This document shows, piece after piece, positions 196 to 2,746 of a DNA stretch of 15,720 nt. This stretch comes from Promethearchaeota archaeon (GTDB lineage: Archaea; Asgardarchaeota; Lokiarchaeia; Sigyniarchaeales; SOKP01). The position numbers and the translations under genes are program-made. The notes beneath the pieces were generated by a model. It had not been told where the DNA came from and searched no databases. It was given only the letters and a program-made list of their open reading frames with translations. How positions within the stretch are numbered: position 1 is the stretch's first letter; every line of letters begins with the position of its first letter. The stretch spans positions 1 through 15,720 of the forward strand of contig JBHLNT010000097.1 in the NCBI GenBank assembly GCA_048941265.1, given 5' to 3'.

Positions 196-855
196 CTAAA
201 TTTTAAGAGATTTATTTTCTAATATTTCTACTTTTATACTGGGGTCTTTTTTGGCCATGAGTTCCTTATAATCATTCAAATTCTTGTCCCAATCTTGCCT
301 TTATATATGATTTATATATAAATTGTGCATTGGGATAAGAATTTCAGGTTTGATATCCAAAGCTGCCATACATGATTCTTCAAAATCCATGGTATAAGTT
401 CCCCCACAGGGCAGCATAGCTACAGTAATATCTTTTAGATCCTTCATTTCGGGTATTCTTTCAGTATCACCCGCGTGGTAGATGCGTTTTCCTTCAGTTT
501 CAATTATCATTCCTGCCCATTTACTACTCTGCGGATGTGTAGGTTTCTTTATTGTATATGATGGAACTAACTCAATTTTAATATCGTCCACTTCAAAAAC
601 TTCATGGAATTTTAGGCCTTTTCCATTAAATTTATCTAAATTTTTTGATATACTTTCGGGACCGATTAAAATTGTTGAATCTTTCATTAATTTTTTAATA
701 TCACCGCGTGAAAAATGATCTCCATGGGAATGTGAAGAAAAGATGATATCTGCTTTTTCTGCATCTCCGGGTACTTGATATGGATCCGTGTATATAACCT
801 TTCCACTTTCAGTTTTAATTTTAAAGCATGCGTGGTTTATCCAAAAAATTTCCAT
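196..855 (-). CDS. Metallo-beta-lactamase-fold metal-dependent hydrolase (UlaG/UPF0173-like), interrupted by a 30-nt intron; exons 855-324 and 293-196, 209 aa spliced
   Basis: Motifs HACF, TDP, SHSHGDH (HxHxDH), HAGDT, LPCGGTYTM and IPMH. The ORF track stops at TAA 303-301, but the same frame continues as WDKNLNDYKELMAKKDPSIKVEILENKSLKI to TAG at 198-196, which looks like the expected C-terminal helix and strand. Confidence 0.88.
294..323 (-). other. Predicted 30-nt bulge-helix-bulge intron in a protein-coding gene
   Basis: Minus strand: outer helix AAAUUCUU-a-UCCCAA (344-330) pairs with UUGGGA-c-AAGAAUUU (292-278); central helix UGCA/GGCA (3 bp plus A.G); bulges CA|A (325-323) and AG|A (295-293); 9-bp intron stem UUUAUAUAU/AUAUAUAAA with loop AAAUC. 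Contains an in-frame UAA. Confidence 0.85.
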
Positions 856-934: not shown

Positions 935-2746
935 TTAATTTTGAATCGGTTTTTTTTTCTTCAAAATTTCTAAACGGAGATTTTTAGCATCTTCAAAATT
1001 AGGATTGATTTCAAGACAACGAGTACAAATATCAAGAGCATTATCGAGACGATTTAACTTTAAAAATAATTTTGCTATATTATACCAGGCCTTACTATAA
1101 TTGGAATCAAGGTCTATGGATCTCTTAAAGAAATTCTTTGCTTGATCATAATCTCCAATATTAAAATATGCTAAACCAAGATCATTCCATAATATCGCGT
1201 TTTTGGGATTAAGCTCCAAAGCGTTTTTGCAGGCATAGATTGCTTTATTATATTCTCCTTTTTCATTATAAGCATAAGTGAGATATTCCCATCCCGCTAA
1301 GAATGTCGGATCTCTCTCTAAAGCTTGTTTATAGGATTTAATTGCTTGCTCTATATTGCCCGTCATTTTATAGGAATAACTTAACTTTTTCCAAGATTCA
1401 ATGGAGTTATTATCTATTGCTAGGGATTTATTAAAGATCTCAATTGCTTTATCATATTCATTAATTTCGGCGTAAATATTCCCAAGTTTATTTAATATTT
1501 CCATATTATTCGGATTTATTTCTAATGCTTTTTTATATGCATGAATCGCTTGTTCATAATCTTTTTCCTCAACATAAATATCACCAAGGGTTTTCCAAGG
1601 AATGATGTTATTTGGTTCAATTTCTAATGCTTTCTTATAGGCATCTTTAGCTTTTATATTATTCTTCTTCACTTGATAGAGATCCCCAAGAAAAATCCAA
1701 GATTTTTGATCATTTGGATTAATATCTACTGCTTTATTATAAGCAGCAATGGCTTTTTCATAGTTACTATCCAAAGTATATAAATTTCCTAAATTAATCC
1801 ATGCTTCTAAGAAGTTTGGATTTATTTCTATGGTTTTTTTATAAGCATCAATTGCATTTTTCAAATCATTTTTTCTTAAAAATATATTCCCCAGTTTATT
1901 CCAAGCTTCTACAAAATCGGAATTTACTTTTACTGCAGTTTTATATGTCTCAATTGCTTTTTCTAGATCATTTTTTTCATTATATACAGCACCCAACTCT
2001 TTCCATGCCTCTAAAAACTTCTCATCAATTTCTAAAACATTCTTATATGCATCTATTGCTTTCTTAAAATCTTTTAGTTTTCTATATGTAGAACCGAGAT
2101 TATTCCAAGCATTTAGAAATTTTGAATCAATTTTAATAGCTTTTTTAAAAGCGATTACTGCTTTATTTAATTCATTATTCTCTTTATATACTGTTCCTAA
2201 ATTATTCCATGCATCTATAAAATCTGAACTAATCTCTAAAGCTCTTTTAAATGCTTCAATGGCTTTATTTGGTTCATGAATGTTTTTATATACCAATCCA
2301 AGATTATTCCACGCCTTAATATATTTTGGATCGATATCAACTGCTTTAAGAAATGTCTCAATTGCCTCATTAAACAGTCCTGTGTCTATATATGACAATC
2401 CAAGATTATTTAATGCCTCTAAAAATTTAGGATTGATTTCCAAGACCTGCTTATATGCATTTATTGCATTATCAAATTCTTTTTTCTCAAAATAATGATT
2501 TGCATGATTAATAGCTAAAAATAATTTCAGCTCTTTAGCTCTTTTAATATATTCTTCAATCTTTTTTTCAGATCTCTCAGTTAATATCGGATTTCTATTA
2601 ATATTATTAAATTGCATTAACTTTTCGGCAGCAGCAAGATATTTCTTTATCGCTTGTTGATATTCATTATTTTTATCATGAACCAGAGCCTCATTTGCAT
2701 CGTTAATTGCATCTTTAAATAATTTTGAAATATCCATTTTTAACAT
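935..2746 (-). CDS. MIT-domain plus tetratricopeptide-repeat protein (about 15 TPRs); start may be the ATG at 2737
   Basis: 34-aa repeats of the form AWNNLG..Y......KAI.A(Y/F)KKA.EI(N/D)P. Residues ~9-74 align without gaps to the MIT domain of the Vps4 encoded in this window. Confidence 0.9.
   Translation of the reverse strand: MLKMDISKLFKDAINDANEALVHDKNNEYQQAIKKYLAAAEKLMQFNNINRNPILTERSEKKIEEYIKRAKELKLFLAINHANHYFEKKEFDNAINAYKQVLEINPKFLEALNNLGLSYIDTGLFNEAIETFLKAVDIDPKYIKAWNNLGLVYKNIHEPNKAIEAFKRALEISSDFIDAWNNLGTVYKENNELNKAVIAFKKAIKIDSKFLNAWNNLGSTYRKLKDFKKAIDAYKNVLEIDEKFLEAWKELGAVYNEKNDLEKAIETYKTAVKVNSDFVEAWNKLGNIFLRKNDLKNAIDAYKKTIEINPNFLEAWINLGNLYTLDSNYEKAIAAYNKAVDINPNDQKSWIFLGDLYQVKKNNIKAKDAYKKALEIEPNNIIPWKTLGDIYVEEKDYEQAIHAYKKALEINPNNMEILNKLGNIYAEINEYDKAIEIFNKSLAIDNNSIESWKKLSYSYKMTGNIEQAIKSYKQALERDPTFLAGWEYLTYAYNEKGEYNKAIYACKNALELNPKNAILWNDLGLAYFNIGDYDQAKNFFKRSIDLDSNYSKAWYNIAKLFLKLNRLDNALDICTRCLEINPNFEDAKNLRLEILKKKKPIQN
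990..2520 (-). repeat. Degenerate 102-bp coding tandem repeats (TPR units)
   Basis: Recurrent plus-strand motif resembling ttattcca(a/t/c)gc at about 102-nt spacing (near 1795, 1897, 2100, 2203, 2305). Boundaries are approximate. Confidence 0.7.

What the first reader, a model, noticed from the sequence alone, without database searches (positions are those of the whole stretch)
278..344. tRNA-type (BHB) intron inside a protein-coding gene of an Asgard-like archaeon
Seen: the MBL hydrolase frame reads ...IPMHN-LYINHI*RQD-WDKNL...KI*, a 30-nt in-frame insert with a UAA directly after the PMH motif. The mRNA folds into a bulge-helix-bulge: exon-exon outer helix, central UGCA/GGCA helix, two 3-nt bulges (CAA, AGA) on opposite strands, and a perfect 9-bp intron hairpin. 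Established: archaeal splicing endonuclease EndA cuts after the second nucleotide of each bulge and RtcB ligates. Applying that rule removes exactly 323-294 and gives CAC A|AU UGG (H-N-W), a 209-aa protein. The well-known archaeal mRNA intron of this type is in crenarchaeal cbf5. Inference: this lineage splices an ordinary enzyme mRNA with tRNA-splicing machinery, and pipelines would mis-call such genes as truncated or pseudogenes. It is mechanistically reminiscent of eukaryotic HAC1/XBP1 non-spliceosomal splicing.
Basis: partly seen in the sequence, partly recalled or inferred. Interest (0 to 1): 0.95.

Follow-up and report, generated by a model that had tools for sequence, protein, structure and literature searches.

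The report
tRNA-type intron in Asgard enzyme gene
A 30-base insert carrying a stop codon splits a metal-hydrolase gene of a Loki-type Asgard archaeon, and it has the shape and evolutionary behaviour of an intron cut out of the messenger RNA by the cell's tRNA-splicing enzymes, which in print is known for very few archaeal genes.

Summary
No RNA data exist to prove it.

- **The site.** The minus-strand MBL-fold hydrolase gene (window 855..196) carries a 30-nt insert (323..294) with an in-frame TAA directly after PMHN.
- **The fold.** The flanks and insert form helix, 4-nt helix, 3-nt bulges and a 9-bp hairpin, in the geometry that gives the canonical 37/38 intron in one of this genome's own tRNA genes.
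- **What removal does.** It gives PMHN-WDKNL, contiguous in all 11 full-length homologues aligned.
- **Spread.** An insert of exactly 30 nt sits at the same site in 15 of the 129 Asgard genomes with a match (400 searched). It is also in one metagenome contig and one second copy. A 29-nt frameshifting version lies in a tandem paralogue.
- **Selection.** Hairpin pairs covary. Exon 2 is under purifying selection (pN/pS 0.17), the insert is not (0.90).
- **Machinery.** The genome encodes two EndA paralogues and RtcB.
- **Distribution.** Presence is patchy among close relatives, needing at least 5 changes on the gene tree.
- **Possible mobility.** A look-alike 30-nt insert in an unrelated zinc-ribbon gene hints that the intron moves.

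In the papers searched, only cbf5 (coding region) and HVO_1309 (5' UTR) are known cases. This scan has noted candidate BHB introns in other protein genes on other DNA (unchecked notes).

The parts
324..855 (-). Exon 1 of the MBL-fold hydrolase gene (177 codons plus the first base of the Asn178 codon)
   Evidence: PF13483 E=2.8e-26, covering residues 2-177. ORF listed. Ends in the invariant PMH motif.
294..323 (-). 30-nt BHB intron (predicted)
   Evidence: Absent from 11 of 11 full-length homologues aligned. An insert of exactly 30 nt lies at the same site in 15 genomes. pN/pS of its in-frame codons is 0.90.
301..303 (-). In-frame TAA inside the intron, within the 3' arm of the hairpin
   Evidence: A stop (TAA or TAG) stands at the same codon in 16 of 16 30-nt inserts.
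199..293 (-). Exon 2 (last two bases of the Asn178 codon plus 31 codons, WDKNL...SLKI); the stop TAG is at 198-196
   Evidence: Aligns to the C-terminus of intron-less homologues; W179, V199, I201, L202 and L207 are invariant in 36 sequences. pN/pS is 0.17 among intron-bearing genes. In the model of a 91%-identical homologue it forms a helix and strands at pLDDT 91-97.
330..344 (-). 5' strand of the exon-exon outer helix (h)
   Evidence: Pairs with 292-278, 14 of 15. The inner 6 pairs are kept in 15 of 15 sequences apart from one cell.
326..329 (-). 5' strand of the central 4-nt helix (UGCA, exon 1)
   Evidence: Pairs with 299-296: U-A, G-C, C-G and A.G. The first three pairs are kept in 15, 15 and 14 of 15 sequences; the fourth is A-U in 2 of 15.
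323..325 (-). 5' bulge CAA; predicted cut between 324 and 323
   Evidence: Geometry. The cut rule was checked on the genome's own tRNA-Ser(UGA). In G202:C151 the third bulge base is G, and the Asn codon survives only if that base is intronic.
300..322 (-). Intron hairpin (h'): 9 bp with the 5-nt loop AAAUC
   Evidence: 96.3% of cells paired across 15 sequences; 5 of 9 pairs show changes on both sides.
296..299 (-). 3' strand of the central helix (GGCA, intron)
   Evidence: It is UGCA, giving a perfect 4-bp helix, in G234 and in the G275 paralogue.
293..295 (-). 3' bulge AGA; predicted cut between 294 and 293
   Evidence: The bulge is AAA in the other 14 genomes.
278..292 (-). 3' strand of the exon-exon outer helix (h)

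Best explanation
The 30 nt at window 323..294 (minus strand) are an archaeal bulge-helix-bulge (tRNA-type) intron inside the coding sequence of an MBL-fold hydrolase gene of a Loki-type Asgard archaeon.

Inferred mechanism: in the pre-mRNA, the end of exon 1 pairs with the start of exon 2 (outer helix) and with the 3' end of the intron (central helix). The intron's own 9-bp hairpin forms the inner helix. This presents two 3-nt bulges on opposite strands. The genome's two-paralogue splicing endonuclease EndA cuts after the second base of each bulge. RtcB then joins the exons and probably circularises the intron. The mature mRNA encodes a 209-aa enzyme with the conserved PMHN-W junction; unspliced mRNA would give a 184-aa truncated product.

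Shown here: the structure, its conservation and covariation, selection on exon 2, the restored junction, and the presence of the enzymes. Inferred: cleavage and ligation themselves.

The intron is older than the split between two genera. It has been lost, or re-acquired, several times.
For: 1. **Junction.** Removal restores PMHN-W, contiguous in 11 of 11 full-length homologues aligned. W179 is invariant and N178 at least 90% conserved in 36.

2. **Same site, same size.** 15 of the 129 genomes with a match (400 of the phylum searched) have one in-frame stop there, and all 15 have an insert of exactly 30 nt. One metagenome contig, L054, and a second copy, G202:C151, add to these. Four database proteins of 180-186 aa end there with other insert sequences.

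3. **RNA-level constraint**.
- Hairpin 96.3% paired, with 5 of 9 pairs changed on both sides.
- Whole structure: 9 pairs with double changes against a shuffled mean of 4.3 (0 of 500 shuffles reach it) and 0-4 in slid controls.
- 82% of cells paired against 30-52% when slid.
- No indel in 15 sequences, so the 4+3 / 4+3 geometry is kept.

4. **Exon 2 is translated in intron-bearing genes.** pN/pS is 0.17 for exon 2, 0.27 for the last 50 codons of exon 1, and 0.90 for the insert's in-frame codons. Synonymous-site divergence in the insert is 0.24, against 0.62-0.76 in the exons.

5. **A frameshifting version.** The tandem paralogue in G275 carries a 29-nt version with a perfect 4-bp central helix and a 7-bp outer helix. 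It shifts the frame, so only removal of the 29 nt, or a 29-nt ribosome jump over them, restores ...HNWDKPLEPFKEL....

6. **5' cut site.** In G202:C151 the first intron base is G. Asn178 is kept only if that base is removed.

7. **Cut rule and uniqueness.** The cut rule and geometry reproduce the 37/38 intron of this genome's tRNA-Ser(UGA). The site is the single outlier of a genome-wide scan.

8. **Machinery.**
- Two EndA paralogues, both above the TIGR00324 cut-off.
- The first is most similar to solved tRNA-splicing endonucleases such as 3p1z_B, E=1.8e-37.
- RtcB scores 569 bits.
- Asgard archaea are reported to have the broad-specificity (alpha-beta)2 EndA (PMC5829648, passages).

9. **Only copy.** This is the only copy of the gene in the assembly found with this query.

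10. **Exon 2 is structural.** It forms a helix and strands at pLDDT 91-97 in the model of a 91%-identical intron-less homologue.
Against: - No RNA evidence of any kind. No spliced junction and no circular intron have been seen for this organism or its relatives.
- The central helix has only 3 Watson-Crick pairs plus A.G in 13 of 15 sequences. Free-energy folding alone draws a 6x6 internal loop instead of the BHB, so the substrate is 'relaxed'.
- The central and inner outer-helix pairs hardly vary, and they overlap conserved codons (P-M-H-N-W). Their conservation therefore says little for the structure.
- All 16 inserts of 30 nt are a multiple of three and keep a stop at the same codon. Splicing does not require this, and it could point to another recoding or regulatory use.
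- The sequences are related, so the shuffle controls overstate significance.
Confidence: 0.85

Rival explanations
1. Programmed translational bypass (ribosome hopping, as in phage T4 gene 60). The peptidyl-tRNA-Asn leaves AAU, the ribosome slides over the hairpin and stop, lands 30 nt downstream, and resumes at UGG.
For: In 14 of 15 genomes the bases before UGG read AAU, so take-off and landing codons would match. A stable hairpin and a stop lie in the gap.
Against: - In G000 and in the G275 paralogue the landing codon would be GAU, not AAU.
- The stop lies six codons after the take-off codon, not next to it.
- Bypass does not explain the outer exon-exon helix, the 4-nt central helix, or two 3-nt bulges kept without any indel.
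- That no bypass is known in archaea is my recollection, not the result of a search.
Confidence: 0.04
2. Stop-codon read-through, or a tolerated in-frame 10-residue insertion. The 30 nt stay in the mRNA and the protein is 219 aa.
For: The 30-nt length keeps the frame in 16 of 16 loci.
Against: - Both TAA and TAG occur at the stop position.
- The insert's codons evolve with pN/pS 0.90 and follow base-pairing, not peptide conservation.
- The G275 version is 29 nt and shifts the frame.
- The insert sits directly after the invariant PMH motif. That this His binds metal is recalled and was not tested here.
Confidence: 0.03
3. Inactivating insertion. The gene is a pseudogene, or makes only a 184-aa truncated enzyme, and exon 2 is a remnant.
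For: Gene callers emit 180-186-aa proteins. The Pfam domain match ends at residue 177.
Against: - Exon 2 has pN/pS 0.17 across 16 intron-bearing genes from two genera.
- Its invariant residues are kept.
- It has no conserved start codon of its own (listing).
- The insert never suffers an indel.
- It is the only copy in G000.
- Exon 2 is an integral helix-strand element of the fold.
Confidence: 0.05
4. Assembly artefact, or a DNA-level mobile element (a tiny transposon with a target-site duplication) of no RNA significance.
For: A 3-4-nt direct repeat (ATT / AATT) flanks the insert, so its borders can slide by up to 4 nt.
Against: - The insert is in contigs of at least 3 runs from 3 studies: X2 record 9, X4 records 24 and 28, X3 record 17. 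It is also in 15 separately assembled genomes.
- It has no terminal inverted repeats.
- The look-alike insert in the zinc-ribbon gene shares only 1 nt of flanking repeat.
- Compensatory changes show selection on RNA pairing.
Confidence: 0.02

Closest known systems
BHB intron in the cbf5 (pseudouridine synthase) pre-mRNA of Crenarchaeota (Watanabe 2002, as cited in Yokobori 2009; PMC2738675, abstract and outline read)
   Same: - A short tRNA-type intron inside a protein-coding sequence.
- A relaxed BHB.
- Hosts with the heteromeric (alpha-beta)2 EndA.
- Patchy distribution, with lineage-specific loss inferred.
- Causes mis-annotation of the gene.
   Different: - Different host gene: an MBL-fold hydrolase, not an RNA-modification enzyme.
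- Different phylum: Asgard, not Thermoproteota.
- Splicing of cbf5 was shown experimentally; this one was not.
- Here the intron is fixed at 30 nt with an in-frame stop, and a possible sequence relative sits in a second gene.
BHB intron in the 5' UTR of Haloferax volcanii HVO_1309 (Schwarz et al. 2020, PMC7714728, passages read; PMC10485636, passages)
   Same: An mRNA substrate of the archaeal splicing endonuclease other than tRNA or rRNA.
   Different: - It lies in a 5' UTR, not in the coding sequence.
- The host is a euryarchaeon with the alpha'2-type enzyme.
- Cleavage was shown in vitro and in vivo.
Archaeal pre-tRNA BHB introns, very abundant in some Asgard lineages (preprint 10.64898/2026.10.13.758758, abstract read and term search)
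   Same: The same motif and cut rule. This genome's own tRNA-Ser(UGA) intron fits the identical geometry. The predicted enzymes are the same.
   Different: The host RNA is an mRNA, and the exon-exon helix is built from codons. The preprint's text holds no occurrence of 'mRNA'.
IRE1/RtcB unconventional splicing of HAC1/XBP1 mRNA in eukaryotes (reviewed in PMC13149111, passages; RtcB's role is recalled)
   Same: Spliceosome-independent, protein-enzyme splicing of a short intron from an mRNA, which changes the C-terminus of the protein. The ligase family would be the same (RtcB in metazoa, recalled).
   Different: The endonuclease (IRE1) and the recognition motif (paired stem-loops) are different. 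That system is regulated by stress; nothing here shows regulation. This is an analogy only, not homology of the intron.

Membership tests
Archaeal BHB (tRNA-type, EndA/RtcB-spliced) intron | Two 3-nt bulges on opposite strands, separated by a 4-bp central helix | tested here: met
   Bulges are 325-323 and 295-293. The central helix has 3 Watson-Crick pairs plus A.G in G000 and 12 others, and 4 pairs in G234 and the G275 paralogue. This is a relaxed, not a strict, BHB.
Archaeal BHB (tRNA-type, EndA/RtcB-spliced) intron | Flanking helices on both sides (hBHBh') | tested here: met
   Outer helix 14 of 15 bp in G000, with a 6-bp core in all 15. Inner hairpin 9 bp, 96% paired, covarying.
Archaeal BHB (tRNA-type, EndA/RtcB-spliced) intron | Cutting after the second base of each bulge yields a functional product | tested here: met
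   It gives PMHN-W, as in 11 of 11 full-length homologues. The rule was validated on the genome's own tRNA-Ser(UGA). The G202:C151 variant constrains the 5' cut.
Archaeal BHB (tRNA-type, EndA/RtcB-spliced) intron | The host encodes the splicing endonuclease and the RtcB ligase | tested here: met
   Two EndA genes (C258, C323) score above the TIGR00324 cut-off. RtcB on C70 scores 569 bits.
Archaeal BHB (tRNA-type, EndA/RtcB-spliced) intron | Cleavage by EndA, and a ligated exon junction or circular intron, observed in RNA | not testable with these tools
   No RNA run was listed for the locus. Only DNA contigs could be laid.
cbf5 pre-mRNA intron family of Crenarchaeota | Located in the cbf5 gene of Desulfurococcales or Sulfolobales | tested here: not met
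   The host gene is PF13483 MBL-fold. Its homologues carry Asgard names. It works like the cbf5 intron but is not a member of that family.
Programmed translational bypass (T4 gene 60 type) | Matched take-off and landing codons, with a stop directly after the take-off codon | tested here: not met
   In G000 and the G275 paralogue the codons would be AAU and GAU. The stop is six codons downstream of the take-off codon. The codons do match in 14 other genomes.

The most novel reading that the evidence does not exclude
Loki-type Asgard archaea harbour a family of mobile ~30-nt BHB mini-introns that colonise protein-coding genes wherever an exon can supply the short central-helix partner (UGCA just upstream of the insertion point). 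Two things would follow. EndA/RtcB splicing of mRNA would be a regular part of gene expression in the closest archaeal relatives of eukaryotes. And introns would be gained and lost in their protein genes on short evolutionary time scales.

Support so far:
- The MBL intron in two paralogues.
- Its patchy distribution: at least 5 changes on the tree.
- A 30-nt insert of the same 1+9+5+9+4+2 layout, with a stop, in a zinc-ribbon gene of G227. It is absent from 11 orthologues.
- A conserved 29-nt frameshifting BHB-like insert in that same gene.
Probability: 0.3. Interest if true: 0.88.

Novelty: new member of a known kind. Interest (0 to 1): 0.7.

Why it matters
- **Few published cases.** The papers read here list two archaeal mRNAs as substrates of the tRNA-splicing endonuclease. 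One is cbf5, in the coding region. The other is HVO_1309, in the 5' UTR. [quoted passage not shown] This would be a coding-sequence case in an ordinary enzyme gene and, as far as my searches show, the first in Asgard archaea, the lineage nearest to eukaryotes.
- **Annotation.** It shows that stop-interrupted 'truncated' genes in these genomes can be intact. Public protein sets already hold 180-186-aa mis-calls of this gene.
- **A natural experiment.** Intron-bearing and intron-less alleles at about 90% protein identity allow study of intron gain and loss, and of how a broad-specificity EndA picks mRNA substrates.
- **If mobility is confirmed.** It would bear on how introns can spread into protein genes without a spliceosome.

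Tried and rejected
- **RNA evidence.** The look-up of sequencing runs listed no RNA holder, so expression and splicing could not be examined. Only DNA contigs were laid.
- **More introns in this genome.**
  - A strict scan gave 12,505 raw candidates and about 130 after frame rescue, mostly AT-rich noise at gene ends.
  - A relaxed scan ranked by energy gave no second convincing case.
  - C157:4102-4122 and C345:3254-3225 read like frames antisense to real genes, judged by eye from the translations.
  - C113:3423-3378 has an intact unspliced C-terminus.
  - The scan needs an outer helix, at least 80 open codons upstream, and a rescued stop or frameshift. It would therefore miss HBh'-type introns, 5'-proximal introns and stop-free in-frame introns.
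- **Covariance model R1.**
  - On G000 it found only the known site.
  - The weak hit G003:C307 lies in an uninterrupted ORF and is rejected.
  - The weak hit G194:C90 (E=0.05) was not resolved.
- **Other leads.**
  - The G028 match with three stops is an intact gene whose stops lie beyond its end.
  - Intron-like pieces in G261, G244 and G008 are AT-rich intergenic stretches, not introns.
- **Zinc-ribbon 29-nt insert.** Covariation did not exceed the shuffles: 1 double change, 317 of 500 shuffles as high. That candidate rests on the frame and a contiguous homologue, not on covariation.
- **Window RNA scans.** Rfam and ARAGORN found nothing in the window.
- **Literature.** Five searches found no report of a BHB intron in an Asgard protein-coding gene. 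The library lacks most subscription journals, and I read no supplements.

Full report
**What is in the sequence**

The gene lies on the minus strand from 855 to 196. Its 184-aa ORF matches the MBL-fold family PF13483 (E=2.8e-26, residues 2-177). The ORF ends at a TAA (303-301) seven codons after the PMH motif. The same frame then stays open for 35 more codons, to a TAG at 198-196.

- Outer helix 344-330 with 292-278, 14 of 15 pairs.
- UGCA (329-326) against GGCA (299-296), three Watson-Crick pairs and one A.G.
- Bulges CAA (325-323) and AGA (295-293).
- A perfect 9-bp hairpin, 322-314 with 308-300, loop AAUC preceded by A (AAAUC).

RNAfold gives -23.1 kcal/mol, z = -5.0, and 0 of 200 shuffles do as well. 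The unconstrained fold draws a 6x6 internal loop in place of the weak central helix. Cutting after the second base of each bulge removes 323..294 and gives CAC A|AU UGG, 209 codons.

**Is the cut rule right for this organism?**

I did not rely on memory for the geometry. In this genome's tRNA-Ser(UGA) gene (C343:16589-16692) the order is helix, 4-nt helix, 3-nt bulge, inner helix. A cut after the second bulge base puts the intron between positions 37 and 38, the canonical site. PMC7714728 and PMC10485636 (passages) describe the motif as a 4-bp helix flanked by two 3-nt bulges.

**Homologues**

The read-through translation found 1011 proteins at E<=0.001, of which the best 120 were listed.
- 116 of the 120 are 204-223 aa long.
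- 4 are 180-186 aa long.

In an alignment of 16, the 11 full-length homologues, up to 91% identical, read PMHN-W without a gap and share the C-terminal ~30 residues. The four short proteins stop just after PMHN or PMHK, with other tails (LYIDHI, LCIINI, LYMFHV, or none). In 36 full-length sequences W179 is invariant, and exon 2 holds further invariant positions. Named hits are Promethearchaeota, Lokiarchaeota, Hodarchaeota and Hermodarchaeota MAGs.

**The same insert in relatives**

A six-frame search covered 400 genomes of the phylum. It matched in 129 at E<=1e-40, and 15 carry one stop inside the match.
- G000 and G006, that is 2 of the 4 matching genomes of the genus.
- 13 of the 47 matching genomes of a second genus, g11.

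All 15 have an insert of exactly 30 nt between ...GCAYA and ATTGG.... The same holds for a metagenome contig (L054) and a second copy in G202. Intron-less alleles occur in the closest relatives: L050-L053 (87-90% identical) and G005 and G009 of the same genus.

DNA contigs of three further runs hold the insert with 0-19 differences and no gap, so it is not an assembly artefact. One divergent contig of run X2 has 79 letters where the window has 109, which fits an intron-less relative in the same sample.

**RNA constraint, not peptide constraint**

On the 15-sequence alignment:
- The hairpin is 96.3% paired, and 5 of its 9 pairs change on both sides (for example U-A to C-G, A-U to G-C).
- Over the whole structure, 9 pairs show double changes, against 4.3 +/- 1.2 in shuffles (0 of 500 reach 9) and 0-4 when the 3' partners are slid.
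- 82% of cells pair, against 30-52% when slid.

The sequences are related, so these controls overstate significance. The central and core outer pairs are nearly invariant and overlap conserved codons, so they say little either way. There is no indel in any of the 15, which keeps the 4+3 / 4+3 spacing.

Nei-Gojobori counts over 120 pairs of 16 intron-bearing genes:

| Segment | pN/pS |
|---|---|
| Exon 2 | 0.17 |
| Last 50 codons of exon 1 | 0.27 |
| Ten in-frame 'codons' of the insert | 0.90 |

The insert's synonymous-site divergence (0.24) is well below that of the exons (0.62-0.76). Exon 2 is therefore translated in frame with exon 1, while the insert is conserved as RNA.

**Two informative variants**

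A covariance model of the site was searched over 135 genomes of the family and returned 20 places. They were the 15 known loci, the second copy in G202, one new strong hit and three weak ones.
- **G275.** The tandem paralogue has a 29-nt version with a perfect UGCA/UGCA central helix and a 7-bp outer helix. It shifts the frame, so read-through cannot rescue it. Removing the predicted 29 nt gives ...HNWDKPLEPFKEL....
- **G202:C151.** The third base of the 5' bulge is G. The invariant Asn codon survives only if this base belongs to the intron, which narrows the 5' cut to the BHB-predicted position or one base upstream.

**Machinery**

G000 encodes two EndA paralogues (201 and 198 aa). Both score above the TIGR00324 cut-off, and the second also touches beta-subunit models weakly. 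The first is most similar to solved tRNA-splicing endonucleases (3p1z_B, E=1.8e-37). RtcB is present (569 bits). PMC5829648 reports that Asgard archaea have the (alpha-beta)2 enzyme with the loop linked to broad substrate range (passages).

ARAGORN finds only 12 tRNA genes in this 91%-complete genome, 9 of them with introns. Rfam's tRNA model finds 26 matches, 22 above its cut-off, and many span 100-137 nt. This fits the heavy interruption of tRNA genes described for some Asgard lineages (preprint 10.64898/2026.10.13.758758, abstract).

**Uniqueness in this genome**

I scanned both strands for the BHB geometry (intron 14-120 nt). A candidate also had to have at least 80 open codons upstream and a gain of at least 20 codons on removal.
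- The scan left 2,931 of 344,673 raw candidates.
- Ranked by the energy of the imposed structure, this site is first at -19.2 kcal/mol and the next is -9.4.
- Three decoy geometries gave 14,189 candidates, of which one reached -14.
- The next real candidates were inspected and rejected.

This scan would miss relaxed or 5'-proximal introns.

**History**

A quick maximum-likelihood tree was built from 62 genes, 16 with the intron and 46 without. Three loci were dropped because the motif search failed on them. The tree scatters the intron-bearing genes: 10 changes on the best tree, and at least 5 forced by well-supported branches.

The introns are clearly homologous and sit at one site. The simplest reading is an old intron lost repeatedly by precise deletion or by recombination with intron-less alleles. 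Lateral re-acquisition is not excluded. The intron-less site is itself a small hairpin (CCAAU-GCAUA-AUUGG), which supplies the outer helix.

**Hints of mobility (partly followed)**

The model's weak hit in G227 (E=0.002 in one genome; 135 were searched) lies in a small zinc-ribbon gene. There a 30-nt insert with the same 1+9+5+9+4+2 layout, a GGCA 3' segment facing an exonic UGCA, and an in-frame TAA is absent from 11 of 11 orthologues. Its removal gives AK-SMKCGDC, against AKNMKCGDC in those orthologues. It lacks a good outer helix (HBh' type). Identity to an MBL intron is only 19 of 30 by my own count, so common origin is possible but not shown.

The same gene carries, in 12 of 12 loci, a 29-nt frameshifting insert with a fully paired 4-bp central helix and a hairpin. 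An uninterrupted homologue in G244 supports the joined reading. Its covariation is not above chance.

**Comparison with what is known**

The closest case is the cbf5 pre-mRNA intron of Crenarchaeota (PMC2738675, abstract). It has the same mechanism and the same pattern of gain and loss, in another gene and another phylum, and there splicing was proven. The second published case is HVO_1309, in a 5' UTR (PMC7714728).

Five full-text searches found no report of such an intron in an Asgard protein gene. The new Asgard tRNA-intron preprint does not mention mRNA. The library misses most subscription journals, and I read no supplements.

Unchecked notes of this scan describe candidate BHB introns in carB, rtcB and fwdB on other DNA. 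Within the scan, therefore, the phenomenon has been seen before, though not in this gene.

**Verdict**

[quoted passage not shown] It is a new member of a known but very rare kind. Direct RNA evidence is the missing piece.

Noticed in passing
L151:1333-1380 (G275:C50:8032-8079, + strand): The tandem second copy of the MBL gene in a third genus (g2) carries a 29-nt version of the intron. It has a perfect 4-bp central helix and a 7-bp outer helix. It shifts the frame, so only its removal restores the conserved C-terminus.
   Followed up: yes
L153:658-696 (G227:C52:66657-66695); orthologues L157-L167: A 30-nt insert containing a stop, with the same layout as the MBL intron, sits in a small zinc-ribbon gene of one genome and is absent from 11 orthologues. 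It may be a transposed relative of the MBL intron (covariance-model E=0.002; 19 of 30 bases identical).
   Followed up: partly
L157:1592-1643 and the other 11 rows of alignment A5: The same zinc-ribbon gene has, in 12 of 12 loci, a conserved 29-nt insert that shifts the frame and folds as a central 4-bp helix, two 3-nt bulges and a hairpin (no outer helix). An uninterrupted homologue in G244 (L169:327-581) supports the joined reading. Covariation is not above chance.
   Followed up: partly
G000, whole genome: ARAGORN finds only 12 tRNA genes (9 with introns). Rfam's tRNA model finds 26 matches, many 100-137 nt long, in a 91%-complete 5-Mb genome. Most tRNA genes are probably heavily interrupted and escape standard callers.
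   Followed up: partly
window 278-344 compared with intron-less loci L003, L004, L044-L046, L050-L053: The intron-less target site is itself a small hairpin (CCAAU-GCAUA-AUUGG) made of the P-M-H-N-W codons. The intron sits in its loop, and the pre-existing stem becomes the outer helix.
   Followed up: partly
window 266-376, run X2 record 11: A divergent DNA contig from the same study has 79 letters where the window has 109. That is 30 fewer, as expected for an intron-less relative living in the same sediment.
   Followed up: no
proteins P0005, P0017, P0033, P0052: Public protein sets hold 180-186-aa versions of this enzyme that end just after PMHN/PMHK with differing tails. These are further intron-bearing lineages mis-called as truncated genes.
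   Followed up: partly
window 301-303 and the same codon in 15 other loci: All 16 of the 30-nt inserts keep an in-frame stop at the same codon. In the two cases where it is TAG, the pairing partner has changed to C. Whether the stop is selected (to end translation of unspliced mRNA) or is a by-product of the stem was not resolved.
   Followed up: no
window 935-2746, minus strand: The neighbouring gene encodes a 603-aa protein that looks like many tandem TPR-like repeats by eye. It is not related to the finding.
   Followed up: no
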